Source: an uncultured Bacilli bacterium (GTDB taxonomy: Bacteria; Bacillota_I; Bacilli_A; RF39; UBA660). From it: 35,907 nucleotides of DNA. Location: NCBI GenBank assembly GCA_947631655.1, contig CANRME010000003.1, forward strand, positions 1 through 35,907, in the 5' to 3' direction. The notes below the pieces were generated by a model. It had not been told where the DNA came from, did not search any database, and saw only the letters and a program-made list of their open reading frames with translations. Position numbers and translations under genes: made by a program. Shown here piece by piece: positions 1-17,282 of this stretch (position 1 is its first letter; the number at the start of each line of letters is the position of its first letter).

Positions 1-351
1 AAAATAAAAGAGTTAGAATCAAAAGAAAAAGAATATCTTAATAAATTAGATACACTTTATGAAGATAAATTTAAAGGATTAGTATCAGAAGAAATGTATA
101 AAAGAATTGCTAATGATACTGAAATTTTACTAACTAAATTAAGAAAAGAAATAAATAAATTGAAAAATGATAACAAGATTATAAATAATAAAACTGATGA
201 TTTAAAACATTATGAAGAAAAGATTAAATCTTTAATTAATATTGAAAATCCTACAAGAGAATTAATGCAAACTATCATTGATAAAATAATTATAGACAAA
301 GATAAAAATATAGAAATAATTTACAAATTTAGCATATTAAATAATATTTAA
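1..351 (+). CDS. Large serine recombinase (TnpX/resolvase-like), C-terminal part; 5' end lies outside the window
   Basis: The frame is open from base 1 (KIKELESKEKEYLNKLDTLYEDKFKGLVSEEMY...). It shows the coiled coil with LYEDKxxGxxSxExY and the terminal LxxxIIDKIII...IEIIYKF typical of LSR C-termini. The ATG at 94 is internal. Confidence 0.8.
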   Translation, partial: KIKELESKEKEYLNKLDTLYEDKFKGLVSEEMYKRIANDTEILLTKLRKEINKLKNDNKIINNKTDDLKHYEEKIKSLINIENPTRELMQTIIDKIIIDKDKNIEIIYKFSILNNI

Positions 352-429: not shown

Positions 430-1488
430 ATGGAAAAGGTTGATGGTTATATTACAATAAAGAATGATAAACATTTTTCGATAGATGATTTACATCAATA
501 TCTTATAGATAGTGATAAAATAGGAAAAATCGATGCATTACATAAACTTTTAATAAAAAGTCTAAATCTTGCTTCAAATACAATATTAACATCAGAAAGT
601 GCAAGTAAATATTTAAATAGTATTTTGAAGAATGAAGAATGGATTGATAAATATTATAATAAAAATTTGAATATATACAATAGTTTCTATAATGCTGTTC
701 ATAAAGGAATAGATAACTTATCGTATTCAGAGGCAATTACAAATATAACTAAATCGTTATCAACTTTATCATCGACATTAGTTAATATTGTAAAAATATC
801 TTATGAAAATATTATAAATAACGAATCGCTAAATTCATTACGAAAATTAGCTCAAACTTTAGCTTCTATCCATTATGATTCTGAAGAAATAAAATTAGTT
901 GATAAAAATGTTGAAAAATTGATTGAATATGGTTGGCCCGTATCTTTTGAATTAGAAGATTATGTTTTTGAAAAAATACCTGGAAAAGCAAAAACAAATG
1001 AAATAGTAAAAAAATACTATACTAAACAAAGGATTAGTAAAATAGAAAGAACTATACGAGATTATTTAAAATTTGATAAGTATTTAATGAAGTATTTTAA
1101 AGAAGCAAAGAAAGATTTTTTAAATTGTTCCTATTATAGTTGTGCAGTAATGCTTTTTGCAATAATTGATAGATTAATATCTATGAATTTTAGTAATGAA
1201 ATAGGTATTAAAGGAATATTACTTTTAAAGAAAAAATTAAAAGATGTTGAATTTTATAACGGATATGTTAATTATTCAACTGTAAAAGTATTGTTTAAAT
1301 TATATGCAGATACTAATAATTTTACATTAGATAAGTCTCAACTTAATAGAAATATGATAGATCATGGATGGGCAAAGAGAAATATTAATCCATATGAATG
1401 TTTACAGTTATTGTTAATAATAAACAATATATTATTTATATTAAATAACGAAACTAATATAATGTCAGAAACATTAAAAATTGCATAA
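430..1488 (+). CDS. Hypothetical protein with a C-terminal HEPN-like domain (possible RNase toxin/defence effector)
   Basis: SD AAGGAG upstream. The C-terminal helical region YYSCAVMLFAIIDR...LNRNMIDHG contains an RxxxxH motif. Confidence 0.55.
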   Translation: MEKVDGYITIKNDKHFSIDDLHQYLIDSDKIGKIDALHKLLIKSLNLASNTILTSESASKYLNSILKNEEWIDKYYNKNLNIYNSFYNAVHKGIDNLSYSEAITNITKSLSTLSSTLVNIVKISYENIINNESLNSLRKLAQTLASIHYDSEEIKLVDKNVEKLIEYGWPVSFELEDYVFEKIPGKAKTNEIVKKYYTKQRISKIERTIRDYLKFDKYLMKYFKEAKKDFLNCSYYSCAVMLFAIIDRLISMNFSNEIGIKGILLLKKKLKDVEFYNGYVNYSTVKVLFKLYADTNNFTLDKSQLNRNMIDHGWAKRNINPYECLQLLLIINNILFILNNETNIMSETLKIA

Positions 1489-1521
1489 TATTGAATTAAA
1501 ACTACACATTGACTATCGCCA

Positions 1522-2694
1522 GGTGGCGAAGGCGCCGAAGTCGTCTATCCTCTAAGAAGTACAGATACACTAGCAAAGGCAATATTAGAAGAAATTGGCT
1601 CTGAAGGACAAATTACACGAAAATATTACCAAAGACGTTTACCAGAAGACCCATCAAAAGATTATTACTATATTATGAGAGAAACCCCAGATACCACGTC
1701 CCTTTTAATAGAATACGGATTTATTGATAATCCAAATGATGTGGAAAAGTTGCAAAACAATTTAACTGACTATGCCGAAGCGGTAGTAAGAGCAGTTTCG
1801 CGATACATTGGTGTTCCTTACACAAGTCCTGAAGGAGTGACAGACAATACATATATTGTGCAAAAAGGAGATAGTTTATACTCGATTGCACGAAAATTCA
1901 ATACAACAGTTGATGCCTTACGTGATTTAAACAATTTAACAAGTGATACTCTATCTATCGGACAATTACTTATTATTTCAGGTGATATGGGACCAGAACC
2001 ATCTGAACCAGAAGAACCAAGTAACGACTATACCTTATACACAGTAAAAAATGGAGACAGTTTATACAAAATTGCCAACCAATTTGGAACTACTGTAGGC
2101 GAATTAATTAGAATCAATAACCTAGGAACTACAGTTTTATCAATCGGACAGCAATTAAGAATTCCAAACAGTCAACAAACGGGAATCCAATATACTGTGC
2201 AAAAGGGTGATAGTCTATGGAAAATCGCCAATCAATATGGTGTCAGTGTCGACGACATTATAGAAATCAATAATCTTTCAGGAACAACTTTATCCATTGG
2301 ACAACAATTAATCATTCCAACGAAAAATCAAATTAAACCACCAAACAATCCAATCGAGCCACCAGTCGATGAAGAAAATACCACACAATTATATGTAGTA
2401 AAAAGTGGAGATAGTTTATACTCCATTGCAAGAGCCTTTGGAACCACAGTGGCTGAATTGAGAGAAATAAACAACTTAACAACAGATACCCTACAGATTG
2501 GGCAACTTTTAAGAATCCCAGGTAACTCGAGTAATACAGAAACCATCTATTACGTAAAAAGCGGAGATAGTCTTTGGAAAATAGCTAATCAATTTGGTAC
2601 AACGGTAGATGCCATCATAAATCGGAATAATTTAGCAACTAATTTACTTCAAATCGGACAACAACTAATTATTCCAAACGAAAATCGGATTTAA
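1522..2694 (+). pseudogene. 3' half of an N-acetylmuramoyl-L-alanine amidase (Amidase_3) with 5 LysM domains; split by the upstream element
   Basis: The frame extends upstream of the called ATG (1675, no SD) as GGEGAEVVYPLRSTDTLAKAILEEIG...DYYYIMRET...IEYGFIDN, up to a stop at 1510. Five YxVxxGDSL LysM repeats follow. The Zn-binding N-terminal half is missing. Confidence 0.8.
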
Positions 2695-2709
2695 GTATCC
2701 GATTTTTTT
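2681..2709. terminator. Bidirectional intrinsic terminator between the convergent LysM gene and cwlJ
   Basis: AAAATCGGAT-ttaagt-ATCCGATTTT followed by a T-run. Confidence 0.8.
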
Positions 2710-3133
2710 AGTGAATCTGTTTACAAACTCCTTCATAAGGTTCATAAAAACAATGACTTTTATATCTGCCAGATAATCTTTGCTCATACCATAAAGGAAC
2801 ACAACTTTCATTTCCTCTCGGAGCATAGAACCATAATGCGTTAGTTGCTGGATAATAGTACTCTCCTTGTAAAACTCTTCTCGCGAGCTCTTTTTCTAAG
2901 GTAGTCGCTGTGGAGAAAAACAAATTACTATTCACACCAGCAAAGCCTCCAGGAGATTGGTAGATAACTTGTGTAATAGTTTGAATATCACGGAAAGTAA
3001 GACAATCCGCAATCGCTCGATTTACCGCCACATTACCAACCATCAACATTCCTAAACTTCCTTCACCAATTGCCTCGGCACGCATTAATCTAGCAAGTAA
3101 GTCCAACTCTTTAGAAGTATAAGAAACTAACAT
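2708..3133 (-). CDS. cwlJ: Spore cortex-lytic enzyme CwlJ (Hydrolase_2/SleB family)
   Basis: LLARLMRAEAxGEGxxGMLxVGNV..NR..DC..F...YQ...WY..R.KSHCFY closely follows B. subtilis CwlJ and has a similar length. The start is placed at ATG 3133 behind SD AGGTG. Confidence 0.88.
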   Translation of the reverse strand: MLVSYTSKELDLLARLMRAEAIGEGSLGMLMVGNVAVNRAIADCLTFRDIQTITQVIYQSPGGFAGVNSNLFFSTATTLEKELARRVLQGEYYYPATNALWFYAPRGNESCVPLWYEQRLSGRYKSHCFYEPYEGVCKQIH

Positions 3134-3148
3134 GAATATCACCTATAA

Positions 3149-3176
3149 TAAATTATGAAAAAAAATAAAATGTGTT
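3149..3176 (-). promoter_or_regulatory. Candidate mother-cell (SigE/SigK-type) promoter of cwlJ
   Basis: Minus-strand -10 CATAATTT matches CATAnnnT. The -35 (AACA/CACA) is a weak match. Confidence 0.45.
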
Positions 3177-3382: not shown

Positions 3383-3424
3383 GATTGCCATATTTAGATA
3401 TGGATTCGCAGTAAGTGTTCATAT

Positions 3425-3451
3425 AAAAAGGACTAGAAAATAGTCTTTTTT
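3425..3451 (+). terminator. Intrinsic terminator
   Basis: AAAAAGGACTA-gaaaa-TAGTCTTTTTT. Confidence 0.75.
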
Positions 3452-3826
3452 GTTTTAGTTTTTTATAGGAGATGATTAGTTCTAAATAACGATAAATAAT
3501 AAATAAAACTTTATATTTTTAGTCTTTGATTTGCTCGTCAATTTATAAGTATATATTTATAGTTATTATTATTTGGTTATTAGTCTTTTATTTATTAATA
3601 AAAGCTAATATATGGGGATATTTTACAAATTTTACAATATTATTGTTATATATTTTCTCAAAGCACTTAATAATCGGTGCCATTTTATAATAATTTTATT
3701 TAGTAAATCAAAGAATATTTGGCAATAACATAAAAGCACTAAACAAAAGGGACGTTTATATGAATTGATTATGATTTATTAGTAAAAAATAAATTATACA
3801 GAAAATAAAAAGATACATACGCACCT

Positions 3827-4060
3827 TTAATCAACATTATCAAATAATTGTCTTATATCTATTTCTAAAGCATCGGCAATTCTAGTTAGAGATACAATAG
3901 TAAAGCCTCTTTGCATTTTTTTACTCTCTATTTTAGAGATAAAATTCATTGTTAATCCAGCCCTATCGGCTAATTGTTGTTGAGTGAAATTCCTATCTTT
4001 TCTATATTTCTTTATATTATATCTAATAACATCAAAATAATAATTATCACTATGTTTCAT
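3827..4060 (-). CDS. XRE-family HTH regulator (C-protein-like size)
   Basis: IKKYRKDRNFTQQQLADRAGLTMNFISKIES...LTRIADALEI; SD AGGTGG. Confidence 0.9.
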   Translation of the reverse strand: MKHSDNYYFDVIRYNIKKYRKDRNFTQQQLADRAGLTMNFISKIESKKMQRGFTIVSLTRIADALEIDIRQLFDNVD

Positions 4061-4072
4061 ATTAGTACCACC

Positions 4073-4156
4073 TGTCCATAGTATTATTATCTTAAAAGTT
4101 TTTATACGGATATATGGACACGTTGTCCGTATTGTGATATAATCTTGATATGGACA
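4073..4156. promoter_or_regulatory. Divergent promoter region with five TAYGGAYA half-sites (putative XRE operators)
   Basis: Half-sites lie at 4073(-), 4105(+), 4113(+), 4124(-) and 4149(+). A TGGACA-17-TATAAT promoter spans 4115-4143. Confidence 0.65.
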
Positions 4157-4183
4157 AAGAGGTAATAGTGAGGTGAAAGAGGT

Positions 4184-4501
4184 ATGATGAATATGATATT
4201 ATCTATATTAGTAGTGGTTATTATAGCCATTGTTGCTATTGTATTTGCTGTTAAAAAGACGATACTTTATGTTGATAAAGAATACCGTAGTGCTGCTATA
4301 ATATCGTTCATATTCCCTATTGTAGGGTTGATAATCTATGCTGTTAATATAGGTTCCAACAAGAAATTAGCAAGAAGTTGTATAGCACCAGTTATAGCAG
4401 GCATGATAATTAGTGCAATAATAATCATAATGGTATTACTGATTCTTGGTGGCGTATATACCGGTGGCTCAGTACATACCAAAAATATTCCAATGAAATA
4501 A
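4184..4501 (+). CDS. Small membrane protein (about 3 TM helices)
   Basis: Three hydrophobic stretches, including SFIFPIVGLIIY; SD GAGGT. Confidence 0.75.
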   Translation: MMNMILSILVVVIIAIVAIVFAVKKTILYVDKEYRSAAIISFIFPIVGLIIYAVNIGSNKKLARSCIAPVIAGMIISAIIIIMVLLILGGVYTGGSVHTKNIPMK

Positions 4502-4525
4502 AAAAAGGCAAGAAATGTCTTTTTT
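4501..4525. terminator. Bidirectional terminator
   Basis: AAAAAAAGGCA-agaaa-TGTCTTTTTTT between convergent genes. Confidence 0.6.
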
Positions 4526-4571
4526 AATTTCTACAAGAAATTTACTTTGCGAATTAAGTTGATAAAGAGAA

Positions 4572-5534
4572 CTATTTTATAGAACTCTTTTTATTTTTGT
4601 TGTTGCGACTTTTTTGCTTTCTTTGATTTTGTCTCGATAAAGTGCATTCATATTCTAAACAATATTTTTGCCTAAATCCATTTCTTTTAAAAATATTATT
4701 ACAAGCTGGATTTTGACAGATTCCTATTGTTTCATCGTTGTTATCTCTTGATAGTTGCATTTTTAGCTCATATATACCTAATAATAGAGCATTATCAAAT
4801 ATCATTTTAGTTTCCCAACATTCATTATCATAATCAAATGTAGTATCAAATGTACAATAACCTTTGGTGCAATTATCAAGAAATTCTAAATTTTCACTTA
4901 TTTTTGTTGGAATATCGTGCTGTTTTGTAGTATCAATTATATATTTATATATTTTAGAGTATTTATTTGTATTATTTGCATATTGTTCTCTTAATAGAAA
5001 AGACTCATAAATTATATAGACAACTGTGAGAAAATATAAAATAATACATTCATTGTCAGATGTGGTATCGTTATCTTCAACAACTGAAACGAATCCATAC
5101 TTTTCAAAGAAACTAATTATTTCTTCTATAAAAATTGATAAATATTTATAATTGTTTCTATATAACAATAATAATATTACATTAAAATATACACTATAAT
5201 TGTCAGATTTAGTGCAATTAGCTGTTATAAAATCATCATCTATAATTTCATCATTTAGTTTTTTCCCCAAATTAAAAATATCTACAAAAACTTCATATGA
5301 ATTAATATTATTTTGTATTTCTTGTTTAGGAGCCATATTTTCATCTTTTTTATATTGATAATTATACTCTCCAATACTTAATATATCACCTTTTTTATGA
5401 TTAGATGTTGGATTAACTAGTGATAAGTCTTTTAAATCATAAGCGCCAATCATTAATAAATCTCGCCAACCTTGATTCATCTTTTTTATAGCGTCTTTAT
5501 CTATATTATTTTTTACTCTTAAATATGCTTTCAT
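4572..5534 (-). CDS. Protein with a C-terminal CGNR-like zinc finger
   Basis: CQNPAC...F......QKYC...C......RKQKSR followed by a basic tail. Confidence 0.65.
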   Translation of the reverse strand: MKAYLRVKNNIDKDAIKKMNQGWRDLLMIGAYDLKDLSLVNPTSNHKKGDILSIGEYNYQYKKDENMAPKQEIQNNINSYEVFVDIFNLGKKLNDEIIDDDFITANCTKSDNYSVYFNVILLLLYRNNYKYLSIFIEEIISFFEKYGFVSVVEDNDTTSDNECIILYFLTVVYIIYESFLLREQYANNTNKYSKIYKYIIDTTKQHDIPTKISENLEFLDNCTKGYCTFDTTFDYDNECWETKMIFDNALLLGIYELKMQLSRDNNDETIGICQNPACNNIFKRNGFRQKYCLEYECTLSRQNQRKQKSRNNKNKKSSIK

Positions 5535-5680
5535 ATATTTACCTTTTTAATGTCACAAGCATTTCACAAGTTATATGTAACATTCCTTTTCTAAATATTA
5601 TATGATGTCATTGTAATTATTTCAAGCGCGCATCTTATAATTACGTAAAATGAATTTAGTAATAATTGACTTGTACAGTA

Positions 5681-5811
5681 GATAAGAAAGGGAAAAACGT
5701 AAAAATCCTTAAAAAAATAAGGGATTTTAGCAATTATTATCGGCAATTATATGTTACCGTTATTAATACTACTTCATTTGCAATTATTACCGATAAGAAA
5801 GGAAAAGTAAA
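5681..5811. repeat. Iteron-like repeats upstream of the Rep-like gene
   Basis: GCAATTAT occurs at 5730, 5743 and 5780, and GATAAGAAAGG at 5681 and 5792. A hairpin lies at 5702-5728. Confidence 0.5.
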
Positions 5812-6315
5812 ATGGCAAAGTATTTAATAGATGATTACGGCGATTTAATAGGTGAATTTAATGATGATGATTCAATTCGTGTCTATAATCCATTGAATAC
5901 TAAAAGAAGACTTATAGAGAATAAATTATTTTATAAATTCTATAAAGATTCAATATTAATATTTGTGAATGGGCTTATTAGTAAACAAGTTACAATAACT
6001 TTGTTTAAATTAATTCGCTTATTAGAATTTGGCACAAATGAATTTGTTAATATTAATGGTTTGCCTGCAAGCTTAAATCAACTTGCTACTTTCTTCCATA
6101 TGAAAACTAAAACTTTCTTTAATCATATAAAAAAGCTTGAAGAACTAGAAATACTAAAGAAAGTAAAAAATGGGAGAAATAGGAATATTTTGATTAATCC
6201 TTATTTTATTGGATATGGCACTAATTGTACGGATGAATCTTTAAAAATTTTTAGCAAGACAATCTGGGCTAAACAATCAAAATATTCTAAAAATAAATTA
6301 AAGATTAAAAGCTAA
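5812..6315 (+). CDS. Winged-helix protein, RepL-like plasmid replication family
   Basis: SLNQLATFFHMKTKTFFNHIKKLEELEILKK...ILINPYFIGYG; SD AAAGGA. Confidence 0.55.
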   Translation: MAKYLIDDYGDLIGEFNDDDSIRVYNPLNTKRRLIENKLFYKFYKDSILIFVNGLISKQVTITLFKLIRLLEFGTNEFVNINGLPASLNQLATFFHMKTKTFFNHIKKLEELEILKKVKNGRNRNILINPYFIGYGTNCTDESLKIFSKTIWAKQSKYSKNKLKIKS

Positions 6316-6350
6316 TTTTTATGATTATTTTAGGGAAAGGAGGAAGTAAA

Positions 6351-6659
6351 ATGAGCAGGGAATACCCTTTTATAATGTTGATGAAAATCATTAGTAGTTT
6401 TAACTATAAAAGTGGTTATATCAAAAATTGGGATGATAACGAAGATATGGTAACAATTAACGAAATATGCCATATTGTAGGTATCAACACCAGCGATATT
6501 AATCATATTTTATCAATCTGGAGTTATTTTGACTTAGCAAGTGAATATAAGCAAAATAACAAAAGATACTTAAAAATATCTGATAAAGTTATTTCCAATA
6601 TTCAAAAAGGAAATATAATTAGATACGAATTAAAAAATACAAAAAGTAGACATTATTAA
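6351..6659 (+). CDS. Hypothetical protein, possibly a diverged winged helix
   Basis: The start is moved to ATG 6351 behind SD AGGAGG. TINEICHIVGINTSDINHIL looks HTH-like. Confidence 0.55.
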   Translation: MSREYPFIMLMKIISSFNYKSGYIKNWDDNEDMVTINEICHIVGINTSDINHILSIWSYFDLASEYKQNNKRYLKISDKVISNIQKGNIIRYELKNTKSRHY

Positions 6660-6735
6660 TTAACAGCATTTGCCATTTAAAATAGACAAAATAATAAAAA
6701 TGTGCTATTATAAATGTGTGAGGTGATAGGTTAAT

Positions 6736-7200
6736 ATGATTACTATAAGTGACAGATTAAAAGACTTAAGAATGAAAAATAAATTAAGTCAGAATGATTT
6801 GGCTTTGTCGCTAGGGATTAAAAGGCATACTATTAGCGCTTATGAAACTGGTAGTATAAAGCCCCCTATTGATAAGTTAATATTAATATCGAATTATTAT
6901 AATGTATCATTAGACTATCTATGTGGGATAACTAATAATCCTATAATTAATAGTTCTAAAATTGATGATTCTTTAGGATTTGATGTCGAAAGTATTGCAA
7001 AAATACAACAATTAAAACTAGCTAATAATATGCAGTTAATAATTAGTTTACTTAAATATGGAAGTATTGATTTGTTTAAATTGGCTAATAAATATTTAAG
7101 TACTAAATATGATAACGATACAAAGAAAAAAACAGATGAGTATGTTGTATTGGAAAAAATTAAGGATACTTTTGATGAATATAAAATAAAAAAAGATTGA
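6736..7200 (+). CDS. XRE-family repressor
   Basis: RLKDLRMKNKLSQNDLA...ISAYETG..KP....L...SNYYNVSLDYLCG; SD GAGGTG. Confidence 0.92.
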   Translation: MITISDRLKDLRMKNKLSQNDLALSLGIKRHTISAYETGSIKPPIDKLILISNYYNVSLDYLCGITNNPIINSSKIDDSLGFDVESIAKIQQLKLANNMQLIISLLKYGSIDLFKLANKYLSTKYDNDTKKKTDEYVVLEKIKDTFDEYKIKKD

Positions 7201-7266
7201 TAGCTACGGCAATAGTTATCAATCAAGAGTACACATAAAACGGTTACCCCACCAATTTATATGTGT
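7188..7266 (-). ncRNA. Candidate ~75-nt antisense RNA upstream of the recombinase operon
   Basis: A minus-strand TTGTCT-17-TATAAT promoter (7301-7273) and a minus-strand terminator (stem 7195-7224, T7 at 7188-7194). Confidence 0.45.
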
Positions 7267-7328
7267 ACTCCTATTATATAATAATTTAATTATTAAGACA
7301 ATTATTTGAAAAAAGGAGTGATAAAAAT

Positions 7329-7514
7329 ATGTTAAATGATATGCAAGTAAATGCGATTTCTAGTGTATTTAGTGCTGGAGATATTAAAGACTATGTAGAA
7401 AGAAATATATATGATTATGTATTATTTGAACAGAAAGATAATAATCCAAATTGTAATATATCAATGAGAATAGGTTTTTTTGGAACACTTTCTTTAATTG
7501 GGGGTGTTAGATAA
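7329..7514 (+). CDS. Small protein translationally coupled to the LSR (candidate directionality factor)
   Basis: Strong SD AAGGAGTG; TAATG stop/start overlap with the LSR. Confidence 0.65.
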   Translation: MLNDMQVNAISSVFSAGDIKDYVERNIYDYVLFEQKDNNPNCNISMRIGFFGTLSLIGGVR

Positions 7515-9058
7515 TGAATGCAGTAATTTATGCAAGATATAGTTCTCATAATCAAACAGAATGCTCTATTGAAGGACAATTAGAGGAATGTAGAAAATAT
7601 GCAGAACAAAATAATATAAATATTATTGGAGAATATATAGATAGGGCAAAATCTGGAACTAAAGATAATAGAGATAACTTTCTTAAAATGATTGAAGATA
7701 GTAAAAGAAAAACATTTGAGGGTGTTTTGGTGTATCAATTAGATAGATTCGCTAGAAATAAATATGATAGTGTAATATACAAAAAACAACTTAAGGACAG
7801 AGGTATAAGGGTATTATCAGCAAGAGAGAATATATCTCAAGATGCAAGTGGTATTCTTATGGAAAGTGTGCTTGAGGGAATGGCGGAATACTTTTCTGTG
7901 GAACTGGGGCAAAAAGTCAGAAGAGGTATGAAGTTAAATGCTGATTGCTGTTACTATAATGGTGGAACAATACCTTTGGGCTATAAATTGGAAGTAGTTA
8001 ATGATGATAGGTTTAATAATGGTATTAAAAAAGCGGTTAAAAAGAGGTATGTAATAGATGAAAATAAAGCACCAATAGTTAAGAAGATATTTGAAATGTA
8101 TGCAAACGACAATAAAATGAGTGAAATTATTAACTATTTAAATGGTTTAGATTTAAGAACAGCTTATAATAAATCATTTAATAAAAGTAGTATTAGAAGA
8201 ATATTAGAAAATAAAAAATATATAGGTATATACACATATCACGGGCAAGAAACAAAAGACTCTATACCTAGAATAATTGATGATGAATTGTTTTACAAAG
8301 TACAACAAGAATTAAGAAAAAATAGTCTTGCTCCAGCTAGAAGAAGAGCTAAGACAGAATATTTATTATCTGGGAAATTATATTGTGGATTGTGTAGAGA
8401 AAAAATGACTGGAAGTTCTGGGACTTCCGAAAATGGAAAGTTATATACTTATTATGCTTGTAAATTAGCTAACAAACATTTATGTGATATGGATTCTGTA
8501 AAGAAAGAGGATATAGAAGATATTGTTTTAAAATCCTGTCAAGATATACTTACAAAAGACAATATTAATTTAATAGCCAAAAAGATTGTTGAGTATGCCA
8601 ATAACGAAAAAAATACTATTGAATATAAACAGTTAAGTAAAGCATTAAAAGATAATGAAAGAAGAAAGATTAACATTGTTAAAGCAATTACAGAATGCGA
8701 AGACAATACTACAAGACAAATTTTATTTGATGAGTTATCTAAAATCCAAAATGCTCTTGATGAAATTAATCAGTCTTTATTAATAGAAAAAGCTAAGCAT
8801 TTAAATCTCGGAATAACAGAAGTAAAGTATTTCTTAAATAATCTAAGAAAAGGAAATATAAATAAGTTTGAGTACCAAAAGATATTGATAAATACATTAG
8901 TAAATAAAGTGTACTTACATAAAGATAAGGCAATTATATTATTCAATATCAATAATCATGTAGAAGAGGTAAAAATATCTCTTCTTAATGATATTGAAAG
9001 TTCGCTTTTTAATGCAGTAGCTCTGCCACTAAGTAATGAAATGGCTTCGAAAAGTTAA
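7514..9058 (+). CDS. Large serine recombinase (resolvase, recombinase, Zn-ribbon and coiled-coil domains)
   Basis: AVIYARYSS (catalytic Ser), LDRFAR, PLGY, YLLSGKLYCGLC...YYAC......C. Confidence 0.95.
   Translation: MNAVIYARYSSHNQTECSIEGQLEECRKYAEQNNINIIGEYIDRAKSGTKDNRDNFLKMIEDSKRKTFEGVLVYQLDRFARNKYDSVIYKKQLKDRGIRVLSARENISQDASGILMESVLEGMAEYFSVELGQKVRRGMKLNADCCYYNGGTIPLGYKLEVVNDDRFNNGIKKAVKKRYVIDENKAPIVKKIFEMYANDNKMSEIINYLNGLDLRTAYNKSFNKSSIRRILENKKYIGIYTYHGQETKDSIPRIIDDELFYKVQQELRKNSLAPARRRAKTEYLLSGKLYCGLCREKMTGSSGTSENGKLYTYYACKLANKHLCDMDSVKKEDIEDIVLKSCQDILTKDNINLIAKKIVEYANNEKNTIEYKQLSKALKDNERRKINIVKAITECEDNTTRQILFDELSKIQNALDEINQSLLIEKAKHLNLGITEVKYFLNNLRKGNINKFEYQKILINTLVNKVYLHKDKAIILFNINNHVEEVKISLLNDIESSLFNAVALPLSNEMASKS
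8999..9053. other. attR of tier 1 / attL of tier 2, inside the LSR 3' end
   Basis: AGTTCG-N18-CTGCCA, then an imperfect CGAAAA 19 nt downstream. It shares AGTTCG and CTGCCA with the tRNA end. Confidence 0.7.
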
Positions 9059-9191
9059 AAAAGAATTTTAGGAGATAATATTCTTTAGCTTGAAAGGAGC
9101 TGTTTTTTAATGATAAATTAAACGATTTTATAAAGAACAATTTTAAGAATAAAAAAGATAATTTATCAAACGAAAACAAGGATGAGTGATT

Positions 9192-10526
9192 TCATCCTTT
9201 ATTTTTTTCGTTAAGTTTACTAAATAAGAAATTTTTATCTAACATAAAGCAAACTTTTGTAACATCATTTTGAAAAAAGTTTGTATAAGCCTCATCGCCT
9301 CTTTTACCCTTAGGAGCAACCTCTAGTATTTGACCATCAAATCTTTTTGGCTGAGGTAGCAATGATATATCATGTTTTTCAATGGCCTTTTTAACTTGAT
9401 TATATGTTCTTCCAAATAATTCAATATCTTCGTCGTTAAATGTTATTTGTCTTATACCCTCTAAAATTCTTTCTCCATTTTTTGAATTTTTACTTCCTTT
9501 ATAACAAATGACAATTAATGTAACTTCTTCAAAATAATTTTTCCAATAAGAGTCTTCCCAAGAATCTTTAAATTCAGTTAATACTAAATTTCTAAAGGAC
9601 ATTCTTTCAAGTGGATAGCCAAAATCGTTTACAGGTAAATTTTTAATAATATAATTAACTTTTTGAAATAATGGATTCTTAGTAGGTAGCTCTTTATCTT
9701 TTCCAATTAACTCATCAGAAATCATTTTACTTAATTGTTTTGGGACTGGTTCTGCTAATTTTTTATGTGTTAGATATTCAAAAATATCATTTTGTTTTTT
9801 TCCAATAAAATTTTGTATTTGAGCGAATACATATTCTTCAATTGTTTTATATTCAATGTTATCTACATCTAAAATTAAATGTGCATTTCTTAAAATACCT
9901 GTCATATAAGAATTTTTTAGTGAGTATGCTCGTGGCATTGCTAATTCAGTAGAAAATGGTTGAGTAGTTCTATCTTTTCCTGTAGATCCTTTGGGACATG
10001 CTCCCAAATAAGAAGTGTCTCCTTCAGATAGCAAATGAGCCTTTCCTTCTATTACTTTTTGTTTGATTAGTTCAAAATCATTTTTAATTATTAAAGAATC
10101 ACCAGTCATATCATAAAGTTGAAAATCAGTAATTACAAAATCCTTATAATCTTTTTCTCTATCATATTCATACCAAATAATTAATATTTTTTTACTTTTA
10201 AATAATAAATGACTAAAATCAAATTCTTCATGAACAATACTATTATAATCAATCTTTCCTAAAACTAATCTTTCTTTAGCAGAAATTGTTCCATTTTTAT
10301 TTTTTATATATCCACTAACTTTTAACTCTACGCCAAGATTAGCAAAATCAGCTTCAGCTTTGTTATTATTAGGATATTTATAAAAACCAGTTTCAATAAT
10401 TTTTCCCAAATTACCCTTATCTTTAGAGTTTGTCGTTAAAGTATTATTTATATCAAAATCTTTAAATGTTTTACCTCTAATTTGTTTGGTATATTCAAGA
10501 AGTTCATCAATTGTTTTGAAATTCAT
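9192..10526 (-). CDS. Sau3AI/MutH-family type II restriction endonuclease
   Basis: KGNLGKIIE...F.Y..NN..EADF...GVELKV...AKERLVL...HLLSEGDTSYLGACPKG...RAYSLKNSYM, followed by a second MutH-like domain. Confidence 0.9.
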   Translation of the reverse strand: MNFKTIDELLEYTKQIRGKTFKDFDINNTLTTNSKDKGNLGKIIETGFYKYPNNNKAEADFANLGVELKVSGYIKNKNGTISAKERLVLGKIDYNSIVHEEFDFSHLLFKSKKILIIWYEYDREKDYKDFVITDFQLYDMTGDSLIIKNDFELIKQKVIEGKAHLLSEGDTSYLGACPKGSTGKDRTTQPFSTELAMPRAYSLKNSYMTGILRNAHLILDVDNIEYKTIEEYVFAQIQNFIGKKQNDIFEYLTHKKLAEPVPKQLSKMISDELIGKDKELPTKNPLFQKVNYIIKNLPVNDFGYPLERMSFRNLVLTEFKDSWEDSYWKNYFEEVTLIVICYKGSKNSKNGERILEGIRQITFNDEDIELFGRTYNQVKKAIEKHDISLLPQPKRFDGQILEVAPKGKRGDEAYTNFFQNDVTKVCFMLDKNFLFSKLNEKNKG

Positions 10527-10536
10527 TTTTTACCTC

Positions 10537-12225
10537 CTAGATTTTGTTAAGCATAATTTTATATTTTTTTGCTACTCTAGCAGAAGTATTAATATTTTCT
10601 TCTATTTTTTCAACTAAATAACTAATTTCTTCTAATGTGGCCAGAGAAAAAATCTCCAATCTTTGCCTTGCTCTTGATGCGGCAACATAAAAATTATTAA
10701 GATATTCTTCTTTCTCAATTTTGAATGGATTGAAATCTACTATAATAATAATATTAGATTCCAAACCTTTAAATTTTTTTGATGTTGTAAATAAAATTTT
10801 GTCTTTTTCAAATTGACTTGATAATGCAATTTTTCTTTTAATATTTTCTATGTTAATTATTGAATTATCTTCGCTTTCCATTGTTAAAATAGTAATATCT
10901 TCATTATCATAACCATCTTTCGTATAACTATTAATTTTTTCAATGATACTTTTTAATAGTTCGTCTTTTCTATTAGAATAATTTAATATTGGCATTATTC
11001 CTGAAATACAAAACTCATTTGATGTACTTTTACTACTAACAATACTGTTCATAGTATTAAGAATTTTTTGAGTATTTCTACAATTCTTTGTTAATTTTAA
11101 TTTGCAATCAAATAATTTTAATATGTTTGGCAAATTTTTATAATATAAAAGTTGGTTTTTATCATAAAATATGAATAATCTAATATTATTTGTTTGGCAA
11201 AATTTTACCAAATGCTCTAGTATTTTATCATAAATATCTTGAGCTTCATCAATAATAATATATTTATATTCCAATTGTTTTAAATCAATTTCTTTAATAG
11301 CAAGTAACAATTGAGAATCAGCTAACAAATTTTTCACAGAATATTTTCCTACAAAAGAGTGTATATTGTAATAATCAATATTTTCATAATTACATTTTTC
11401 AATTAAATGTTTATTAAGAAACTTGTTGAAACATAAAAATAATACTTTTCCGTTTTTTGCAAACCTTTTTGCTTGTTCTACAGCAACGAACGTTTTTCCA
11501 GTTCCAGCTCCGCCTTCAATAGCAACAGAATTTTGATCTTCAATAAAATCTAATACTTTTTTTTGCTCATTGGTAAGTTGTAAAAATACATAGTCAGCTT
11601 CATTTTTTACATTAGACGAAGAGGGAATTAAATCAAAATTTGGCATTAAAATATTTTCTATTACTTTTATTCCATTTTTTTGTAATCTGGTAAAACGTAG
11701 TCCATTATAATAATTAAATACTTTTATTAAGCTTAATTCTGGCGTTTTCAAATCTTCTTCTGATAATATTTGATTAATGCTATAGTTTAACGGTAATGTA
11801 AATTTTTTTATTTCATCTTTTGAAATAGATGGGAACCAGACAGCTTTGTCAATAAAACACCTATCACCATTTAGTAGTTCACCATCAATCTCTTCTATAA
11901 GCTTATATTTGCTTCTATCAGCTTGTTTAAAAGGATCTTTCATTTTATATTCTTCATTTGTGTCTAATCTTTTTTGATACCAATCACCATTTTCACATCT
12001 AATTTCTCCGGATTTAACTTCAATTATTAGAATTCCATAGATTGGATTAAAAATTGCAAAATCAGCTTCTCCCCAAGTAATTCTTCCGTTGTTATTCCTT
12101 TTTTGCCATGTTAATGAATAATAAATATTCCAAGAATTAGACAAGTTTTTTAAAGCCTGAAATATTTTATATTCACCTAAACTATTATGGAAATCATCAG
12201 ATATTTCTGGATAAAAATGTGCCAT
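10537..12225 (-). CDS. NERD nuclease fused to an SF1 (UvrD-like) helicase
   Basis: NERD motifs EADF...IEVKSG...PFKQA; helicase motifs GGAGTGKT, IIDEAQD, NCRNT, KGLE and YVAASRAR. Confidence 0.88.
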   Translation of the reverse strand: MAHFYPEISDDFHNSLGEYKIFQALKNLSNSWNIYYSLTWQKRNNNGRITWGEADFAIFNPIYGILIIEVKSGEIRCENGDWYQKRLDTNEEYKMKDPFKQADRSKYKLIEEIDGELLNGDRCFIDKAVWFPSISKDEIKKFTLPLNYSINQILSEEDLKTPELSLIKVFNYYNGLRFTRLQKNGIKVIENILMPNFDLIPSSSNVKNEADYVFLQLTNEQKKVLDFIEDQNSVAIEGGAGTGKTFVAVEQAKRFAKNGKVLFLCFNKFLNKHLIEKCNYENIDYYNIHSFVGKYSVKNLLADSQLLLAIKEIDLKQLEYKYIIIDEAQDIYDKILEHLVKFCQTNNIRLFIFYDKNQLLYYKNLPNILKLFDCKLKLTKNCRNTQKILNTMNSIVSSKSTSNEFCISGIMPILNYSNRKDELLKSIIEKINSYTKDGYDNEDITILTMESEDNSIINIENIKRKIALSSQFEKDKILFTTSKKFKGLESNIIIIVDFNPFKIEKEEYLNNFYVAASRARQRLEIFSLATLEEISYLVEKIEENINTSARVAKKYKIMLNKI

Positions 12226-12227
12226 AA

Positions 12228-15200: not shown

Positions 15201-15773
15201 TTGATAGTGTTCTAAATATTTTTCGAGATTATCGTCTATATCAATTAAATATTCACAATTATCTGTTAAATTAATATCGATGTTATTGTCATAAAAATGA
15301 ATAATTCTATCTATATTTGCATTATTTGGAAACTCATAATTGTAATAAGTCACATAATATTGCCCGTTTACCAAATAGATATTTGAATAAATGTTGTCTA
15401 AACTTTGAACTTTTAAATTGACATTCATATTTTCTTCTTCTTTATATTTTAAATACTCTAAGAACGTATTTTCTTCTATTTCACAATATATAGGATATAT
15501 TCCAGGAAAAATATTATTACATACTATTTTTATTCTTATTCTTCCAGTCTTGACAAAAATATAAAGTTGTTCATGAATTAATTCAAATTCTTCATAAGTA
15601 ATCCAAAATTTTTCACCACGTTTATTATAAATATATCCACCTAGTTCAAATGCATAATCATTAGTTAAATTTTTATAGTCGATTTTAAAATCTAAATCTT
15701 TTTCACTTAGTGGCAAATAATCTAATTTTGATAAAAAATCCTTATTAAACCCTTTATAAACATATAAATCCAT
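12228..15773 (-). CDS. Large RecQ-like SF2 (DEAH) helicase with long N- and C-terminal extensions
   Basis: STGAGKS, YVSPE, IDEAH..TTWG..FRPDY, TAT, ATKAFGMGID and YVQEIGRAARD. The start is placed at ATG 15773 behind SD AAGGAAG. Confidence 0.88.
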   Translation of the reverse strand: MDLYVYKGFNKDFLSKLDYLPLSEKDLDFKIDYKNLTNDYAFELGGYIYNKRGEKFWITYEEFELIHEQLYIFVKTGRIRIKIVCNNIFPGIYPIYCEIEENTFLEYLKYKEEENMNVNLKVQSLDNIYSNIYLVNGQYYVTYYNYEFPNNANIDRIIHFYDNNIDINLTDNCEYLIDIDDNLEKYLEHYQNIITNNYKTIGYKKVCNTEISNMIFESMKALLKSLNINILYKYSGEYPITSTIREELKKIGTKLTGKTDFNFRKLSFYKDPDLSDEMEDISQAEIMEYIVSESEKAYAGKRYRDIFMTASTGAGKSLIFQLPSIYLSEKYNKLIIIIEPLKGLMQNQYDILTKSGYKKHAYLNSDIATIVQREEIINNVKEGKIDILYVSPETLLSHSIDSLIGEREIGLIIIDEAHIVTTWGVGFRPDYWYLGTYINRLRTMQNKFGQGKRHHDFPIFACTATAVNGGKDDTVSETIISLFMNDPIKKIGSAKRENITFEINNYTDKSYDQYKDMKIQKLGERINGWIDKNDKTIVYCPYSSIAHQIYNGDKEFSSFKCFKNDIRIYTGSGEEAEEKVQAMDDFTEGKANVMIATKAFGMGIDISDIHNVFHYAVTGGLSDYVQEIGRAARDKSINGKAIVDYFNGDMKYVNTLFGMSQIKQYHVKKCLSIIYDTFLNKKHRNFMINPKMFDGVFGKTNQDDLENKLKIVLLMLEKDFYETYKIYVLISRPGTMFTKAYASVSEENVLKIENSKYGKYFTKIAEGRNREAVGGCLVTDPGPIYEIDLKSIWENIYGSEMSFASFKYKFFNKNSVDVMGDIKNDIFYRVKLSMKAKSGLLSEVYQKAMDEINYLTDTLTSFDRNFFTKEEFKNKISSRYKSSKAEIIANSYFDVIDLNYECIVRREDNEFEKYQISNGKLRTLATQILSKASLIKNIRYINNSEYEQFYADNVTDSNALKLLSILDLVSYEIVGGDSPEIFIRLNAPDKIKNIVEDRVIYKNNYVEMAKEKHYRSVKILDYFFRHYNNSQNNERWNFVERYFLGEDIENEIDNIAAVENKIIKHPEKLEKYIDVNACETYSLEDYDSWKRISENLVTEEKYKYYCNLLDRENKKIADFAYTDINISGITIKALFIYVNENLIISPEYCGFEVRNKCSEKDWKIIAIDEVEKYLELIPNEV

Positions 15774-15881
15774 AAATACACTTCCTTTTTGATCTTGTTT
15801 TTTATTTAAAAATTTTATACAATAATAGTAATGAAGGTTAATCTTTAACATCATTTATTATATAATAAATATCGATAAAAG

Positions 15882-15910
15882 TTGATCTTTTTCTTCAAAT
15901 AAATTATAAT
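15882..15910 (+). promoter_or_regulatory. SigA promoter of the methyltransferase, with GATC in the -35 box
   Basis: TTGATC-17-TATAAT. Confidence 0.7.
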
Positions 15911-15951
15911 ATATTTAGGGAATATAAACAAATAGTCAGGAGGCTTAAGTT

Positions 15952-17190: not shown

Positions 17191-17215
17191 TTATTATGTT
17201 ATAATTAAAATAACT

Positions 17216-17247
17216 GAGATATCATTAAAATTATGATATCTTTTTTT
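17216..17247 (+). terminator. Intrinsic terminator after the methyltransferase
   Basis: GAGATATCAT-taaaatt-ATGATATCTTTTTTT. Confidence 0.7.
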
Positions 17248-17282
17248 AGTAATACTACTTTTTAAAAGTAATGTTGTCATGA

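What the first reader, a model, noticed from the sequence alone, without database searches (positions are those of the whole stretch)
1500..2694. Amidase-LysM gene split by a recombinase element next to cwlJ: possible skin-like developmental rearrangement
Seen: the amidase frame begins abruptly at GGEGAEV (1522) behind an in-frame stop, with no start or SD. The retained 3' half is undamaged (catalytic IEYGF, five LysM repeats). An LSR element lies directly upstream and cwlJ directly downstream. Known: Amidase_3 has its Zn ligands upstream of this point (the S.H.NA motif immediately precedes it). LSR elements interrupt sigK, spsM and gerE and excise in the mother cell. Inference: this cell-wall amidase may be a new target gene that is rebuilt by excision during sporulation.
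Basis: partly seen in the sequence, partly recalled or inferred. Interest (0 to 1): 0.75.

Follow-up and report, generated by a model that had tools for sequence, protein, structure and literature searches.

The report
Recombinase island splitting a sporulation amidase gene
A cell-wall amidase gene that looks like a late spore-mother-cell gene is cut in two by a mobile defence island carrying its own recombinase; nearly half of the related gut species share the same cut, so the gene is probably rebuilt by DNA excision during spore formation, although excision itself was not seen.

Summary
Window 1522-2694 is the intact 3' part of an Amidase_3 + 5xLysM gene. Homology stops exactly at a large-serine-recombinase (LSR) attR junction. 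The LSR tail (1-351) and one cargo ORF lie upstream, and a cwlJ-like gene lies downstream.

The window starts at a contig end in a 64%-complete assembly, so this copy's 5' part could not be found. A second contig of the same assembly (C36) holds a complete parallel locus: 5' part, 9.2-kb island, 3' part, cwlJ-like gene. Its core is shared and the join is in frame.

The same codon is cut in 6 of 19 relatives' loci. About 69 of 149 listed family matches also look cut. Intact and split alleles that are 375/376 identical coexist.

Three results point to mother-cell control:
- The gene and cwlJ carry a sigmaK-type promoter (AC-N16-CATAnnnTA).
- All 15 complete islands carry a ~30-codon ORF behind a CATA-type -10 box, just upstream of the LSR, as in skinCd and SPbeta.
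- Related LSRs split spoIVA in the same family.

Excision was not observed, and the islands move horizontally. I read this as a new target gene and element family of the known skin-like class. This scan had noted the same theme on other DNA.

The parts
1..351 (+). C-terminal 116 codons of the island's large serine recombinase, cut off by the contig start
   Evidence: 84% identical over 116 aa to residues 414-529 of the L048 LSR, 76% to the L043 LSR and 73% to the C36 LSR. No Pfam hit on the fragment alone.
430..1488 (+). Cargo ORF of 352 aa between the LSR and attR, function unknown
   Evidence: No hit in Pfam, PADLOC or NCBIfam. The protein Atlas returned only 'hypothetical protein' clusters. 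It clustered with no ORF of the 15 other islands.
1501..1521 (+). Element-side arm of attR (ACTACACATTGACTATCGCCA), arm type A
   Evidence: Homologous to the attR arms of L035rc, L042, L043, L048, L049, L054 and L059. In those loci the arm is the inverted repeat of the attL element arm (..GGTCATTGTGTAAC..).
1522..1529 (+). Core GGTGGCGA, the stretch that attL and attR share in complete loci and where crossover must lie
   Evidence: On C36, GGTGGGGAAG is present at both attL and attR. On G012 the shared stretch is GGTGGTGA. The window holds attR only.
1522..2694 (+). 3' part of the Amidase_3-LysM gene: 390 codons plus stop, with the catalytic IEYGF motif and five LysM repeats
   Evidence: It aligns from GGEGAE onward with the intact 462-aa relative P0011 (71% over 396 aa by tblastn).
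2708..3133 (-). cwlJ-like cell-wall hydrolase (141 aa from the ATG), convergent with the amidase gene
   Evidence: Pfam Hydrolase_2, E 2.8e-15. NCBIfam SleB hit is weak and below cut-off. The same neighbour follows the amidase gene on C36, G004, G021 and L085.
3149..3175 (-). SigmaK-type promoter-like motif of cwlJ (ACACATTTTATTTTTTTTCATAATTTA)
   Evidence: One of only 10 sites in the 1.23-Mb assembly where AC-N16-CATAnnnT[AT] is followed by a ribosome-binding site and an ORF.

Best explanation
SHOWN. Window 1522-2694 is the distal part of a host Amidase_3-LysM gene. An integrative island inserted by a large serine recombinase has cut the gene at one conserved codon stretch (..SNH(I/L)NAGG|GxGAEV..). 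The island belongs to a large family with a fixed layout. After attL comes variable anti-phage cargo: restriction-modification systems, Abi-type ATPases, Fic, reverse transcriptase and others. Then come a 25-35-codon ORF, the LSR on the same strand as the amidase gene, 0.1-3 kb of further cargo, and attR. Joining attL and attR restores the frame exactly. Neither half can be active alone, because the zinc ligands lie in the 5' part and the catalytic Glu lies in the 3' part.

INFERRED.
(1) The amidase is a late mother-cell enzyme comparable to CwlC. It has a sigmaK-type promoter and no signal peptide, and it sits next to a cwlJ-like gene with the same promoter type.
(2) The LSR is made constitutively; 8 of 15 islands have a sigmaA-type extended -10 box in front of it. 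The small ORF in front of that, behind a CATA-type (sigmaE/sigmaK) -10 box, would be the recombination directionality factor.
(3) The island would therefore be excised only in the terminally differentiating mother cell. The amidase gene is rebuilt there and expressed from its sigmaK-type promoter, while the spore genome keeps the island.
(4) This would make mother-cell-only genes cost-free parking sites for defence islands.

For this window's own copy, the 5' part and the rest of the island lie outside the assembly.
For: - Junction and domain content.
- Parallel complete locus on C36 with a shared 10-bp core and an in-frame join. Its attL and attR are each bridged by contigs with no mismatch from 4 runs of one sample.
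- Same cut in 6 of 19 relatives' loci, intact in 13.
- 69 of 149 listed family matches to the 5' part have open frames of only 82-149 aa.
- 20 of 20 such loci that I fetched lose homology at the same codons. 13 of those 20 hold the LSR and the 3' part 8.7-19 kb downstream.
- 3' parts are intact ORFs in 14 of 15 loci, and all 15 LSRs are full length (513-556 aa).
- Pairwise dN/dS among split alleles has a median of 0.22.
- Intact P0011 and split P0002 are 375/376 identical.
- Promoter [AT]C-N16-CATAnnnT[AT] lies 38-47 nt before the ATG in 24 of 29 loci. The strict form occurs in 18 of 29, against a genome background of 0.026 per kb per strand.
- The motif matches the published sigmaK form (-35 AC, -10 CATA..), seen in passages of PMC3789822.
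- cwlJ and a CotZ-family gene carry the same motif.
- A small ORF behind a CATA-type box lies upstream of the LSR in 15 of 15 islands.
- The closest LSR clade outside this family (40-41% identical) splits spoIVA in 4 of the 21 family relatives that hold spoIVA, with the same small ORF.
- The organisms carry Spo0A (23 of 24 relatives, and G000) and SpoIVA (21 of 24).
- Published parallels, seen as passages. skinCd has a constitutive LSR and a sigmaE-driven 72-aa directionality factor (PMC5025042). SPbeta has the unit sprB-sprA-attR (PMC6957869). In skin elements the recombinase gene sits at the edge, next to the 3' fragment, and nothing else is shared (bioRxiv 10.1101/2022.02.25.481979).
Against: - No excised or rejoined form was seen. 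The contigs of 4 runs (one sample) show no 305->9513 joint on C36, although contigs drop rare forms.
- LSR similarity does not track host-gene similarity (Spearman -0.10; for example LSR 91% against amidase 55%). One genus can hold two island types, and occupancy varies within genera and within a species. The islands are therefore actively mobile, and many insertions may be recent. This weakens the argument that the halves were kept intact while split.
- The -35 region of the small ORF's promoter could not be resolved in this AT-rich DNA (read by eye).
- Codon changes in the small ORF between close pairs are mostly non-synonymous (for example 5 of 6 and 6 of 7). Its coding status rests on its being open in 15 of 15 islands, its ribosome-binding site and a shared hydrophobic pattern.
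- The 5' part of this window's copy is absent from the assembly. The only extra fragment (C44) has ATA where the start codon should be.
- TnpV is present in some islands. As I recall, TnpX-type LSRs excise without a helper.
Confidence: 0.6

Rival explanations
1. Plain insertion hot spot. The conserved GGTGGnGA(A/T)GG stretch is simply the preferred attB of a successful family of LSR defence islands. Carriers have lost the amidase, which is dispensable or redundant. The island leaves only sporadically when it transfers, with no link to sporulation.
For: - The islands move horizontally: LSR and host similarity are uncorrelated.
- Occupancy varies within genera and species.
- The cargo is anti-phage defence, which can pay for a small cost.
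- No joined form was seen in contigs.
- Mother-cell lysins are redundant in Bacillus (passages of PMC10565116).
Against: - A CATA-type -10 box plus a small ORF lies in front of the LSR in 15 of 15 islands, across at least 5 arm types.
- The sister LSR clade sits in spoIVA, which spore-formers cannot do without.
- In one 96%-complete relative (G012), other LSRs lie directly upstream of the 3' parts of a class-B PBP and an S11 carboxypeptidase.
- Both gene halves and all 15 LSRs are undamaged.
Confidence: 0.3
2. Relic. In this genome the gene is dead. The 5' part is lost, and the 3' part is an undecayed remnant or serves alone as a LysM wall-binding protein made from the internal ATG at 1675.
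For: - No matching 5' part was found in the assembly.
- The C44 fragment has ATA at the start position and no clear ribosome-binding site.
Against: - The assembly is only 64% complete, and the contig ends inside the island.
- The 390-codon 3' part has no defect.
- The attR arm and the LSR tail are intact and of a common type.
- No ribosome-binding site precedes the ATG at 1675.
Confidence: 0.07
3. Assembly artefact or chimeric join at position 1521/1522.
For: The genome is a fragmented metagenome-type assembly of 126 contigs.
Against: - The same junction type, with homologous arms, recurs in independent genomes and public protein sets.
- Both C36 junctions are bridged by per-run contigs without mismatch.
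Confidence: 0.02

Closest known systems
skinCd of Clostridioides difficile (sigK; LSR CD1231 plus directionality factor CD1234)
   Same: An LSR element inside a mother-cell gene. The published logic is a constitutive LSR from a sigmaA promoter and a small factor under a mother-cell sigma, with its transcription start 14 bp before the start codon (passages of PMC5025042). Here a TGnTAnAAT box precedes the LSR in 8 of 15 islands, and a CATA-type box lies 14-20 nt before a small ORF in 15 of 15.
   Different: The target is an amidase gene, not sigK. The candidate factor has 25-35 codons, against 72 aa. The cargo is anti-phage defence rather than prophage remnants. The islands are horizontally mobile and occupy about 4 in 10 species of a family. 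Excision is untested.
SPbeta in spsM of Bacillus subtilis (SprA/SprB)
   Same: The unit attL - rdf - int - attR, with the directionality gene directly upstream of the LSR gene and under sporulation promoters. The target is a sigmaK-dependent late mother-cell gene (passages of PMC6957869 and PMC4191935).
   Different: SPbeta is an active 134-kb phage (size recalled). These islands are 8.7-19 kb, and no phage structural genes were found in the 5 annotated. The best phage LSR match is 35% identical.
gin element in gerE of Bacillus cereus ATCC 10987
   Same: A non-phage intervening element carrying a restriction-modification system and serine recombinase genes. It is rebuilt during sporulation and needs an extra factor, GirX (passages of PMC5595907).
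   Different: gin has three recombinases and is 28.6 kb. The target and host lineage differ. Here there is one LSR at the island's edge.
yin element in yabG of Clostridium botulinum
   Same: A recently added target of the same class. Its LSR has the same three Pfam domains, and it has a putative small directionality factor with a putative SigK promoter (passages of PMC10747680).
   Different: yin is a prophage unique to one strain. Here the elements are a multi-lineage island family across many genera.
CwlC of Bacillus (mother-cell lysis amidase)
   Same: An N-terminal MurNAc-LAA (Amidase_3) domain in a sporulation-phase enzyme, SigK-regulated in B. thuringiensis israelensis (passages of PMC10565116). 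As I recall, it has no signal peptide and carries C-terminal wall-binding repeats.
   Different: The wall-binding part here is made of LysM repeats. No NCBIfam equivalog is reached; the best amidase model is CwlD at 68 bits, against a cut-off of 221. Orthology is not shown.
Tn4451/Tn4453-type mobilizable transposons (TnpX, TnpV)
   Same: A Pfam TnpV protein (E 2.8e-37) lies next to attL in some type-A islands (4 islands in the cluster). The elements are LSR-driven.
   Different: No mobilization gene was seen in the 5 annotated islands. Relatedness of the LSR to TnpX was not tested. The biology of TnpX is recalled, not read here.

Membership tests
Sporulation gene-intervening elements (skin, SPbeta, vfbin, vrin, gin, yin) | The element interrupts the coding sequence of a gene, and its removal restores one open frame. 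| tested here: met
   The C36 join is in frame, as are the 13 complete loci. Intact alleles read ..SNH(I/L)NAGGGxGAEV... For the window's own copy only attR is available.
Sporulation gene-intervening elements (skin, SPbeta, vfbin, vrin, gin, yin) | The target is a sporulation gene expressed in the mother cell. | tested here: inconclusive
   A sigmaK-type motif occurs in 24 of 29 loci at a fixed distance. The N-termini start within about 12 residues of GHGG, so there is no signal peptide. A cwlJ-like neighbour carries the same motif. There are no expression data, and no RNA holder was listed.
Sporulation gene-intervening elements (skin, SPbeta, vfbin, vrin, gin, yin) | The element encodes its own site-specific recombinase, typically at the edge next to the 3' fragment. 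| tested here: met
   An LSR on the gene's strand lies 0.1-3 kb upstream of attR in C36, G012 and 13 further loci. In the window, the LSR tail ends 1.17 kb before attR.
Sporulation gene-intervening elements (skin, SPbeta, vfbin, vrin, gin, yin) | Excision is confined to sporulation and the mother cell. | not testable with these tools
   Only contigs of one sample could be laid, and they showed no joined form.
Sporulation gene-intervening elements (skin, SPbeta, vfbin, vrin, gin, yin) | A directionality factor is under sporulation-specific control (in SPbeta, skinCd, gin). | tested here: inconclusive
   A conserved 25-35-codon ORF with a CATA-type -10 box occurs in 15 of 15 islands. Binding to the LSR could not be modelled because the job was never queued. 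Codon changes are not biased towards synonymous ones.
Large serine recombinase | Resolvase, Recombinase and Zn_ribbon_recom domains with a catalytic Ser in the N-terminal R-x-S motif. | tested here: met
   All three Pfam domains are present in the C36 LSR and in 5 further LSRs. Y-I-R-L-S is invariant in 15 sequences. The window holds only the last 116 residues, which lie outside these domains.
Amidase_3 (MurNAc-LAA) amidase | A complete catalytic domain with zinc ligands and a catalytic Glu. | tested here: not met
   The window's piece covers profile positions 85-173 of 174 only. The GHGG, E and SNHxNA part lies in the missing 5' piece. The rebuilt gene, as in the intact relative P0011, has the whole domain.
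CwlD (germination-specific amidase) | Reaches the NCBIfam equivalog TIGR02883. | tested here: not met
   The intact relative P0011 scores 68.5 bits against a cut-off of 221.55. A separate full Amidase_3 gene without LysM lies on C26.

The most novel reading that the evidence does not exclude
A whole family of small-genome (0.8-1.6 Mb) gut spore-formers may run multi-locus programmed editing of the mother-cell genome. Anti-phage defence islands would park inside several mother-cell-only genes: the CwlC-like amidase, spoIVA, a SpoVD-like PBP, an S11 carboxypeptidase and LysM repeats. All would be cut out on cue by LSRs, each paired with an unusually small (about 30 aa) directionality peptide under sigmaE/sigmaK control. 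The spore line would then carry a large, exchangeable defence arsenal at no cost to growth or sporulation.
Probability: 0.35. Interest if true: 0.8.

Novelty: new member of a known kind. Interest (0 to 1): 0.62.

Why it matters
The published list of sporulation genes rebuilt by excision is short. The papers I read name sigK, spoVFB, spoVR, spsM, gerE and yabG, mostly from cultured Bacillus and Clostridium.

This case would add a peptidoglycan amidase as a target. It would show the theme at very high frequency, about 4 in 10 species, in an uncultured, genome-reduced gut lineage. It would also link the theme to the traffic of defence islands: genes needed only in the mother cell would act as safe harbours for anti-phage cargo.

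The many LSR lineages share one attB but have different attP arms, and each may have a possible 30-aa helper. That makes them a natural test set for how serine integrases evolve site recognition and directionality. There is also a practical point: gene callers annotate the two halves as separate genes. Of the best 120 homologue clusters, 41 are 3'-half-only calls.

Tried and rejected
- Reads. One search found 4 runs of one sample and one study, labelled rabbit gut metagenome and kept as contigs. No RNA holder was listed. Laid on C36, they bridged attL and attR but showed no joint across the island. Contigs cannot show rare forms, so this says little.
- Complex prediction (LSR residues 170-529 with the small ORF, alignments A1 and A2). 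I handed it in 17 times. The queue was always full, the job never ran, and there is no verdict.
- Co-divergence of LSR and host gene, as a way to date the split: rejected (Spearman -0.10).
- IMG/VR scan for free circular forms. The two contigs where the LSR is followed by an amidase 3' part (L084, L085) are integrated copies with the 3' part and, in L085, cwlJ. L086 (52%) is a different context. No circle was recognised.
- Phage collection. The best LSR match is 35% identical, which gives no sign of a phage origin.
- ORF 430-1488. Nothing was found in Pfam, PADLOC, NCBIfam or the Atlas.
- The -35 box of the small ORF's promoter. ATA at N16 occurs in only some islands and is not informative in AT-rich DNA (read by eye).
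- Paper searches. (vfbin, vrin) was swamped by unrelated words. One search failed on term syntax and was re-sent.
- The search of earlier findings by place returned nothing for this genome.
- Whether contigs C3 and C36 are paralogues in one organism or two organisms in one bin was not resolved.
Full report
**1. What is in the window**

The frame that encodes the amidase piece opens at 1513, behind a TGA. It reads LSPGGEGAEVVYPLRS.. and runs 393 codons to the stop at 2692-2694. It has no start codon or ribosome-binding site; the first ATG is at 1675.

Pfam matches Amidase_3 profile positions 85-173 of 174 only, plus five LysM repeats. Published work on a related amidase names two catalytic glutamates, E26 and E151 (passages of PMC10565116). 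In the intact relative P0011, GHGG, the first Glu and SNHIN lie before the break, and LIEYGF lies after it. Neither piece can therefore be active alone.

Other features around the piece:
- Downstream and convergent lies a Hydrolase_2 (CwlJ/SleB-type) gene, followed by tRNA-Trp.
- Upstream lies an unknown 352-aa ORF.
- At 1-351 lie the last 116 codons of a large serine recombinase (LSR). They are 84% identical to the C-terminus of a full-length LSR in a relative.

The window is the first 35.9 kb of contig C3. The assembly has 1.23 Mb in 126 contigs, 64% completeness and 27.8% G+C. The island is therefore cut off by the contig end.

**2. The other half**

A family search of the whole assembly found five Amidase_3 matches:
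- a complete LysM-less gene on C26;
- the window's piece;
- a 16-position fragment on C44;
- two pieces on contig C36: profile positions 5-84 at 64-312 and positions 84-173 at 9520-9795.

C36 (11.4 kb) carries, in order:
- the 5' part, ending ..SNHINAGGGE and then reading into foreign sequence;
- a type I restriction-modification system (hsdR, hsdM, hsdS);
- a 520-aa LSR with the Resolvase, Recombinase and Zn_ribbon_recom domains;
- a nucleotidyltransferase and an HNH protein on the other strand;
- the 3' part (LSRGGEGAEVIY..);
- a cwlJ-like gene.

GGTGGGGAAG stands at both junctions, and the two frames are in register, so removing the 9.2 kb gives ..SNHINAGGGEGAEVIY... The window's junction (ACACATTGACTATCGCCA|GGTGGCGAAGG) is homologous to C36's attR (ACACATTGATTATCACGA|GGTGGGGAAGG).

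C36 is a parallel locus, not the window's partner. Its 3' part is 65% identical to the window's over the first ~104 residues.

The window copy's own 5' part is not in the assembly. A search with the first 90 residues of the intact relative P0011 found only C36 (51%), C26, and a 17-codon fragment on C44. The C44 fragment reads NYKIVIDPGHGGEDPG and is then followed by foreign genes. It has ATA where the start codon should be. It may be the first piece of a gene cut at more than one site, or a relic. I could not decide.

**3. Not an artefact**

Four runs of one sample, kept as contigs, bridge C36's attL (for example 218-1140 and 287-1869) and attR (8613-9705 and 8090-9608) without a mismatch. They show no joint across the island.

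**4. Relatives**

With the first 106 residues of the window's piece, 19 of 40 relatives gave a match.
- In 13 loci the 5' part is contiguous and the gene reads ..SNH(I/L)NAGGG(E/D/T)GAEV...
- In 6 loci (G012, G010, G015, G016, G021, G004) homology stops at the same codons as in the window.
- G012 has the whole arrangement on one contig: 5' part, 12.7 kb, a 524-aa LSR on the gene's strand, 3' part.
- G010 and G016 have their 5' parts on other contigs, and so does G004.

Across 300 sampled genomes of the family plus G000, the 5' part matched in 214 of 301. Of the 149 listed matches outside G000, 69 have open frames of only 82-149 aa that end just after the break point. At least 9 of these lie within about 170 nt of a contig end and are ambiguous. 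The other 80 have 219 aa or more. This is my count from the table; a further 96 matches were not listed.

I fetched 20 short-frame loci, chosen because they lie deep in long contigs. Results:
- All 20 lose homology at the same place.
- 13 hold an LSR (51-78% identical to C36's, same strand) and the 3' part 8.7-19 kb downstream.
- One (G296) has an orphan 5' piece and an intact copy 11.5 kb downstream, with no related LSR.
- One has the LSR inverted next to attL.
- One shows nothing within 19 kb.
- The rest end at contig ends.

In the public protein collection, the best 120 homologue clusters split as follows: 41 begin fewer than 40 residues before GGxGAE, at least 71 are intact across the site, and 8 are unclear. 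The intact 462-aa P0011 and the 378-aa half-gene P0002 are 375/376 identical. Occupied and empty sites therefore coexist at or near species level.

**5. What the islands are**

The element-side arms of attL and attR are inverted repeats of each other. They fall into at least five types, and the window has the commonest, type A.

The only genes shared widely are:
- the LSR, in 15 of 15 islands;
- an HTH_36 protein, in 11 of 15;
- a Fic protein, in 7;
- TnpV, in 4;
- one small unknown ORF.

The rest is anti-phage cargo: restriction-modification types I, II and III, an AbiEii-type ATPase, a reverse transcriptase with a Schlafen-type helicase, HipA, GmrSD, and an AAA ATPase with a subtilase. No phage structural or conjugation genes were found in the 5 islands annotated. 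The best phage LSR is 35% identical.

LSR similarity does not follow host-gene similarity (Spearman -0.10). One pair has LSRs 91% identical in hosts whose amidase parts are 55% identical, and one genus holds two island types. The islands therefore move between lineages and are not old vertically inherited inserts.

**6. State of the split gene**

- The 3' parts are open for 304-390 codons in 14 of 15 loci.
- The exception (G141) stops inside its first LysM repeat, has foreign sequence in all frames after that, and has a second LSR 2.6 kb further on. I read this as a second insertion.
- Only 1 of the 149 listed 5' matches has an internal stop.
- Pairwise dN/dS over the first 100 codons of 15 split alleles has a median of 0.22, with dS saturated.

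Because the islands are mobile, this shows that the gene is under selection in these lineages. It does not show that it stayed under selection while split.

**7. Is it a mother-cell gene?**

I lined up the 100 nt before the start codon. The motif [AT]C-N16-CATAnnnT[AT] lies 38-47 nt before the ATG in 24 of 29 loci, just ahead of the ribosome-binding site. The strict form AC-N16-CATAnnnTA occurs in 18 of 29. In the whole assembly the strict form occurs 64 times on both strands, or 0.026 per kb per strand.

Published promoter mapping in C. difficile describes sigmaE and sigmaK promoters as sharing the -10 box. They differ at -35, with ATA for sigmaE and AC for sigmaK; one sigmaK example given is CATATAAT with AC (passages of PMC3789822).

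In this assembly only 10 sites combine AC-N16-CATAnnnT[AT] with a ribosome-binding site and an ORF. One is the window's cwlJ-like gene (motif at 3149-3175). Another is a CotZ-family spore-coat gene. The other eight are a UPF0029 protein, a phosphorylase, an ORF6N protein, a YolD-like protein, an HTH protein, and three without a significant family.

The proteins begin within about 12 residues of GHGG, so they have no signal peptide. The lineage has Spo0A (23 of 24 family relatives, and G000) and SpoIVA (21 of 24).

Together this fits a CwlC-like or spore-associated amidase made late in the mother cell. This is an inference from motifs and not from expression data.

**8. A recombination unit of the skinCd/SPbeta type**

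In 15 of 15 complete islands, a 25-35-codon ORF lies just upstream of the LSR gene. Its stop lies from 80 nt upstream of the LSR start to a short overlap with it. It has its own ribosome-binding site and a CATAnnnT. box 14-20 nt before its start. The peptides share the core F-K-x-L-(I/L)-x-x-Y-(I/L) across all arm types.

Between this ORF and the LSR, 8 of 15 islands have a TGnTAnAAT extended -10 box, against a background of 0.37 per kb per strand.

This is the published layout of SPbeta (attL-sprB-sprA-attR) and the published logic of skinCd. In skinCd the LSR is read from a sigmaA promoter in all cells. The 72-aa factor CD1234 is read from a sigmaE promoter, with a transcription start 14 bp before the start codon, and this confines excision to the mother cell (passages of PMC6957869 and PMC5025042).

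Caveats:
- The -35 region is unresolved.
- Codon changes between close pairs are mostly non-synonymous.
- The binding model could not be run.
- The window itself does not reach this part of its island.

**9. Support from other genes of the same family (outside the finding)**

SpoIVA is in two pieces, breaking at profile positions ~120-124 (..TPW|Y..), in 4 of the 21 family relatives that have it. In G007 and G013 an LSR of 534 or 528 aa lies directly upstream of the 3' piece. It is preceded by a small ORF of the same pattern. These LSRs are 40-41% identical to the amidase-island LSRs, which makes them their nearest outgroup here.

In G012 (1.3 Mb, 96% complete), other LSRs (~25% identical) lie directly upstream of three further pieces:
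- the 3' part of a class-B PBP with a PASTA domain (Transpeptidase profile 103-298); its 5' part (profile 2-104) is on another contig;
- the 3' part of an S11 D-Ala-D-Ala carboxypeptidase (profile 105-237);
- a five-LysM protein.

A gene that sporulation cannot do without being split in 4 genomes is hard to reconcile with insertions that are never reversed.

**10. Literature and earlier notes**

The papers I read, as passages found by term, list these targets:
- sigK, spoVFB and spoVR;
- spsM (PMC4191935 and PMC6957869);
- gerE (PMC5595907);
- yabG (PMC10747680).

A survey preprint notes that in skin elements the recombinase gene sits at the edge next to the 3' fragment, and that no other gene is shared (10.1101/2022.02.25.481979).

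Searches combining intervening element or gene rearrangement, sporulation, recombinase or prophage, and amidase listed no paper whose title or abstract describes an amidase target. The same holds for spoIVA. I did not read every listed paper: PMC8951512, for example, holds both words and was not opened. Subscription journals are not covered.

This scan's own earlier notes, which are unchecked AI notes on other genomes, describe the same amidase theme and the spoIVA theme. My counts were made independently, before I saw them, and they agree.

**11. Verdict**

The element is a member of a large and, as far as these searches show, undescribed family of LSR defence islands. They use one codon stretch of a sigmaK-type amidase gene as attB. 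The layout matches the known sporulation gene-intervening elements closely. Sporulation-coupled excision is the best-supported mechanism (about 0.6) but is untested. A plain, reversible insertion hot spot remains a serious rival (about 0.3).

Noticed in passing
G007:C22:15271-15633 with C1:67654-68013; G013:C25:257-619 with C12:19523-19876; G011 C8/C15; G012 C3/C10 (loci L063-L070): spoIVA is in two pieces at ..TPW|Y.. in 4 of the 21 family relatives that hold it. In G007 and G013 an LSR preceded by a small ORF lies directly upstream of the 3' piece. These LSRs are 40-41% identical to the amidase-island LSRs.
   Followed up: partly
G012: L081:5019-7650(-), L082:1395-2459(+), L083:5232-7656(+), L080:3492-7248(-): In one 1.3-Mb relative, further LSRs lie directly upstream of three pieces: the 3' part of a class-B PBP with PASTA (its 5' part is on another contig), the 3' part of an S11 D-Ala-D-Ala carboxypeptidase, and a five-LysM protein. 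Several envelope or sporulation-type genes appear to be split in one genome.
   Followed up: partly
window 3400-17200: A second, unrelated LSR gene (7514-9058, ~24% identical to the amidase-island LSRs) lies beyond tRNA-Trp, among HTH genes and defence-type genes. These include a type II restriction enzyme (9192-10526), a NERD/UvrD helicase (10537-12225), a DpdF/Cas3-like helicase (12228-15854) and a C5 methylase (15952-17190). Its ends and target were not determined.
   Followed up: partly
G000 contig C44:5754-5804(-): A 17-codon N-terminal amidase fragment (..IVIDPGHGGEDPG) is followed by foreign genes. ATA stands at the start position, and there is no clear ribosome-binding site. It may be a third cut site right after the GHGG zinc-ligand motif, or a relic.
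   Followed up: partly
L053 (G141:C1) 14066-18268: The 3' part stops inside its first LysM repeat (..VVQKGDT|), and a second LSR (37% identical) follows 2.6 kb further on. The gene seems to be cut at two sites by two islands.
   Followed up: partly
L062 (G296:C2) 601-879 and 12346-12888: An orphan 5' piece is followed 11.5 kb later by an intact copy of the gene, with no related LSR between them. This may be an element that brings its own 5' part, or a tandem paralogue.
   Followed up: no
G081:C12, G279:C6, G153:C29: Some genomes carry two intact tandem copies of the amidase gene. The two loci of G000 (C3 and C36) may therefore be paralogues and not a mixed bin.
   Followed up: no
L042 (C36) 6461-7600: Summed contig depth over the LSR gene is 2-4 times that of the rest of the island, with many variant letters. 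Several related LSR genes are present in the same sample.
   Followed up: no
L084 and L085 (IMG/VR contigs): Two contigs filed as viral hold integrated copies of such islands, with the amidase 3' part and, in L085, the cwlJ-like gene. They are host fragments, not phages.
   Followed up: partly
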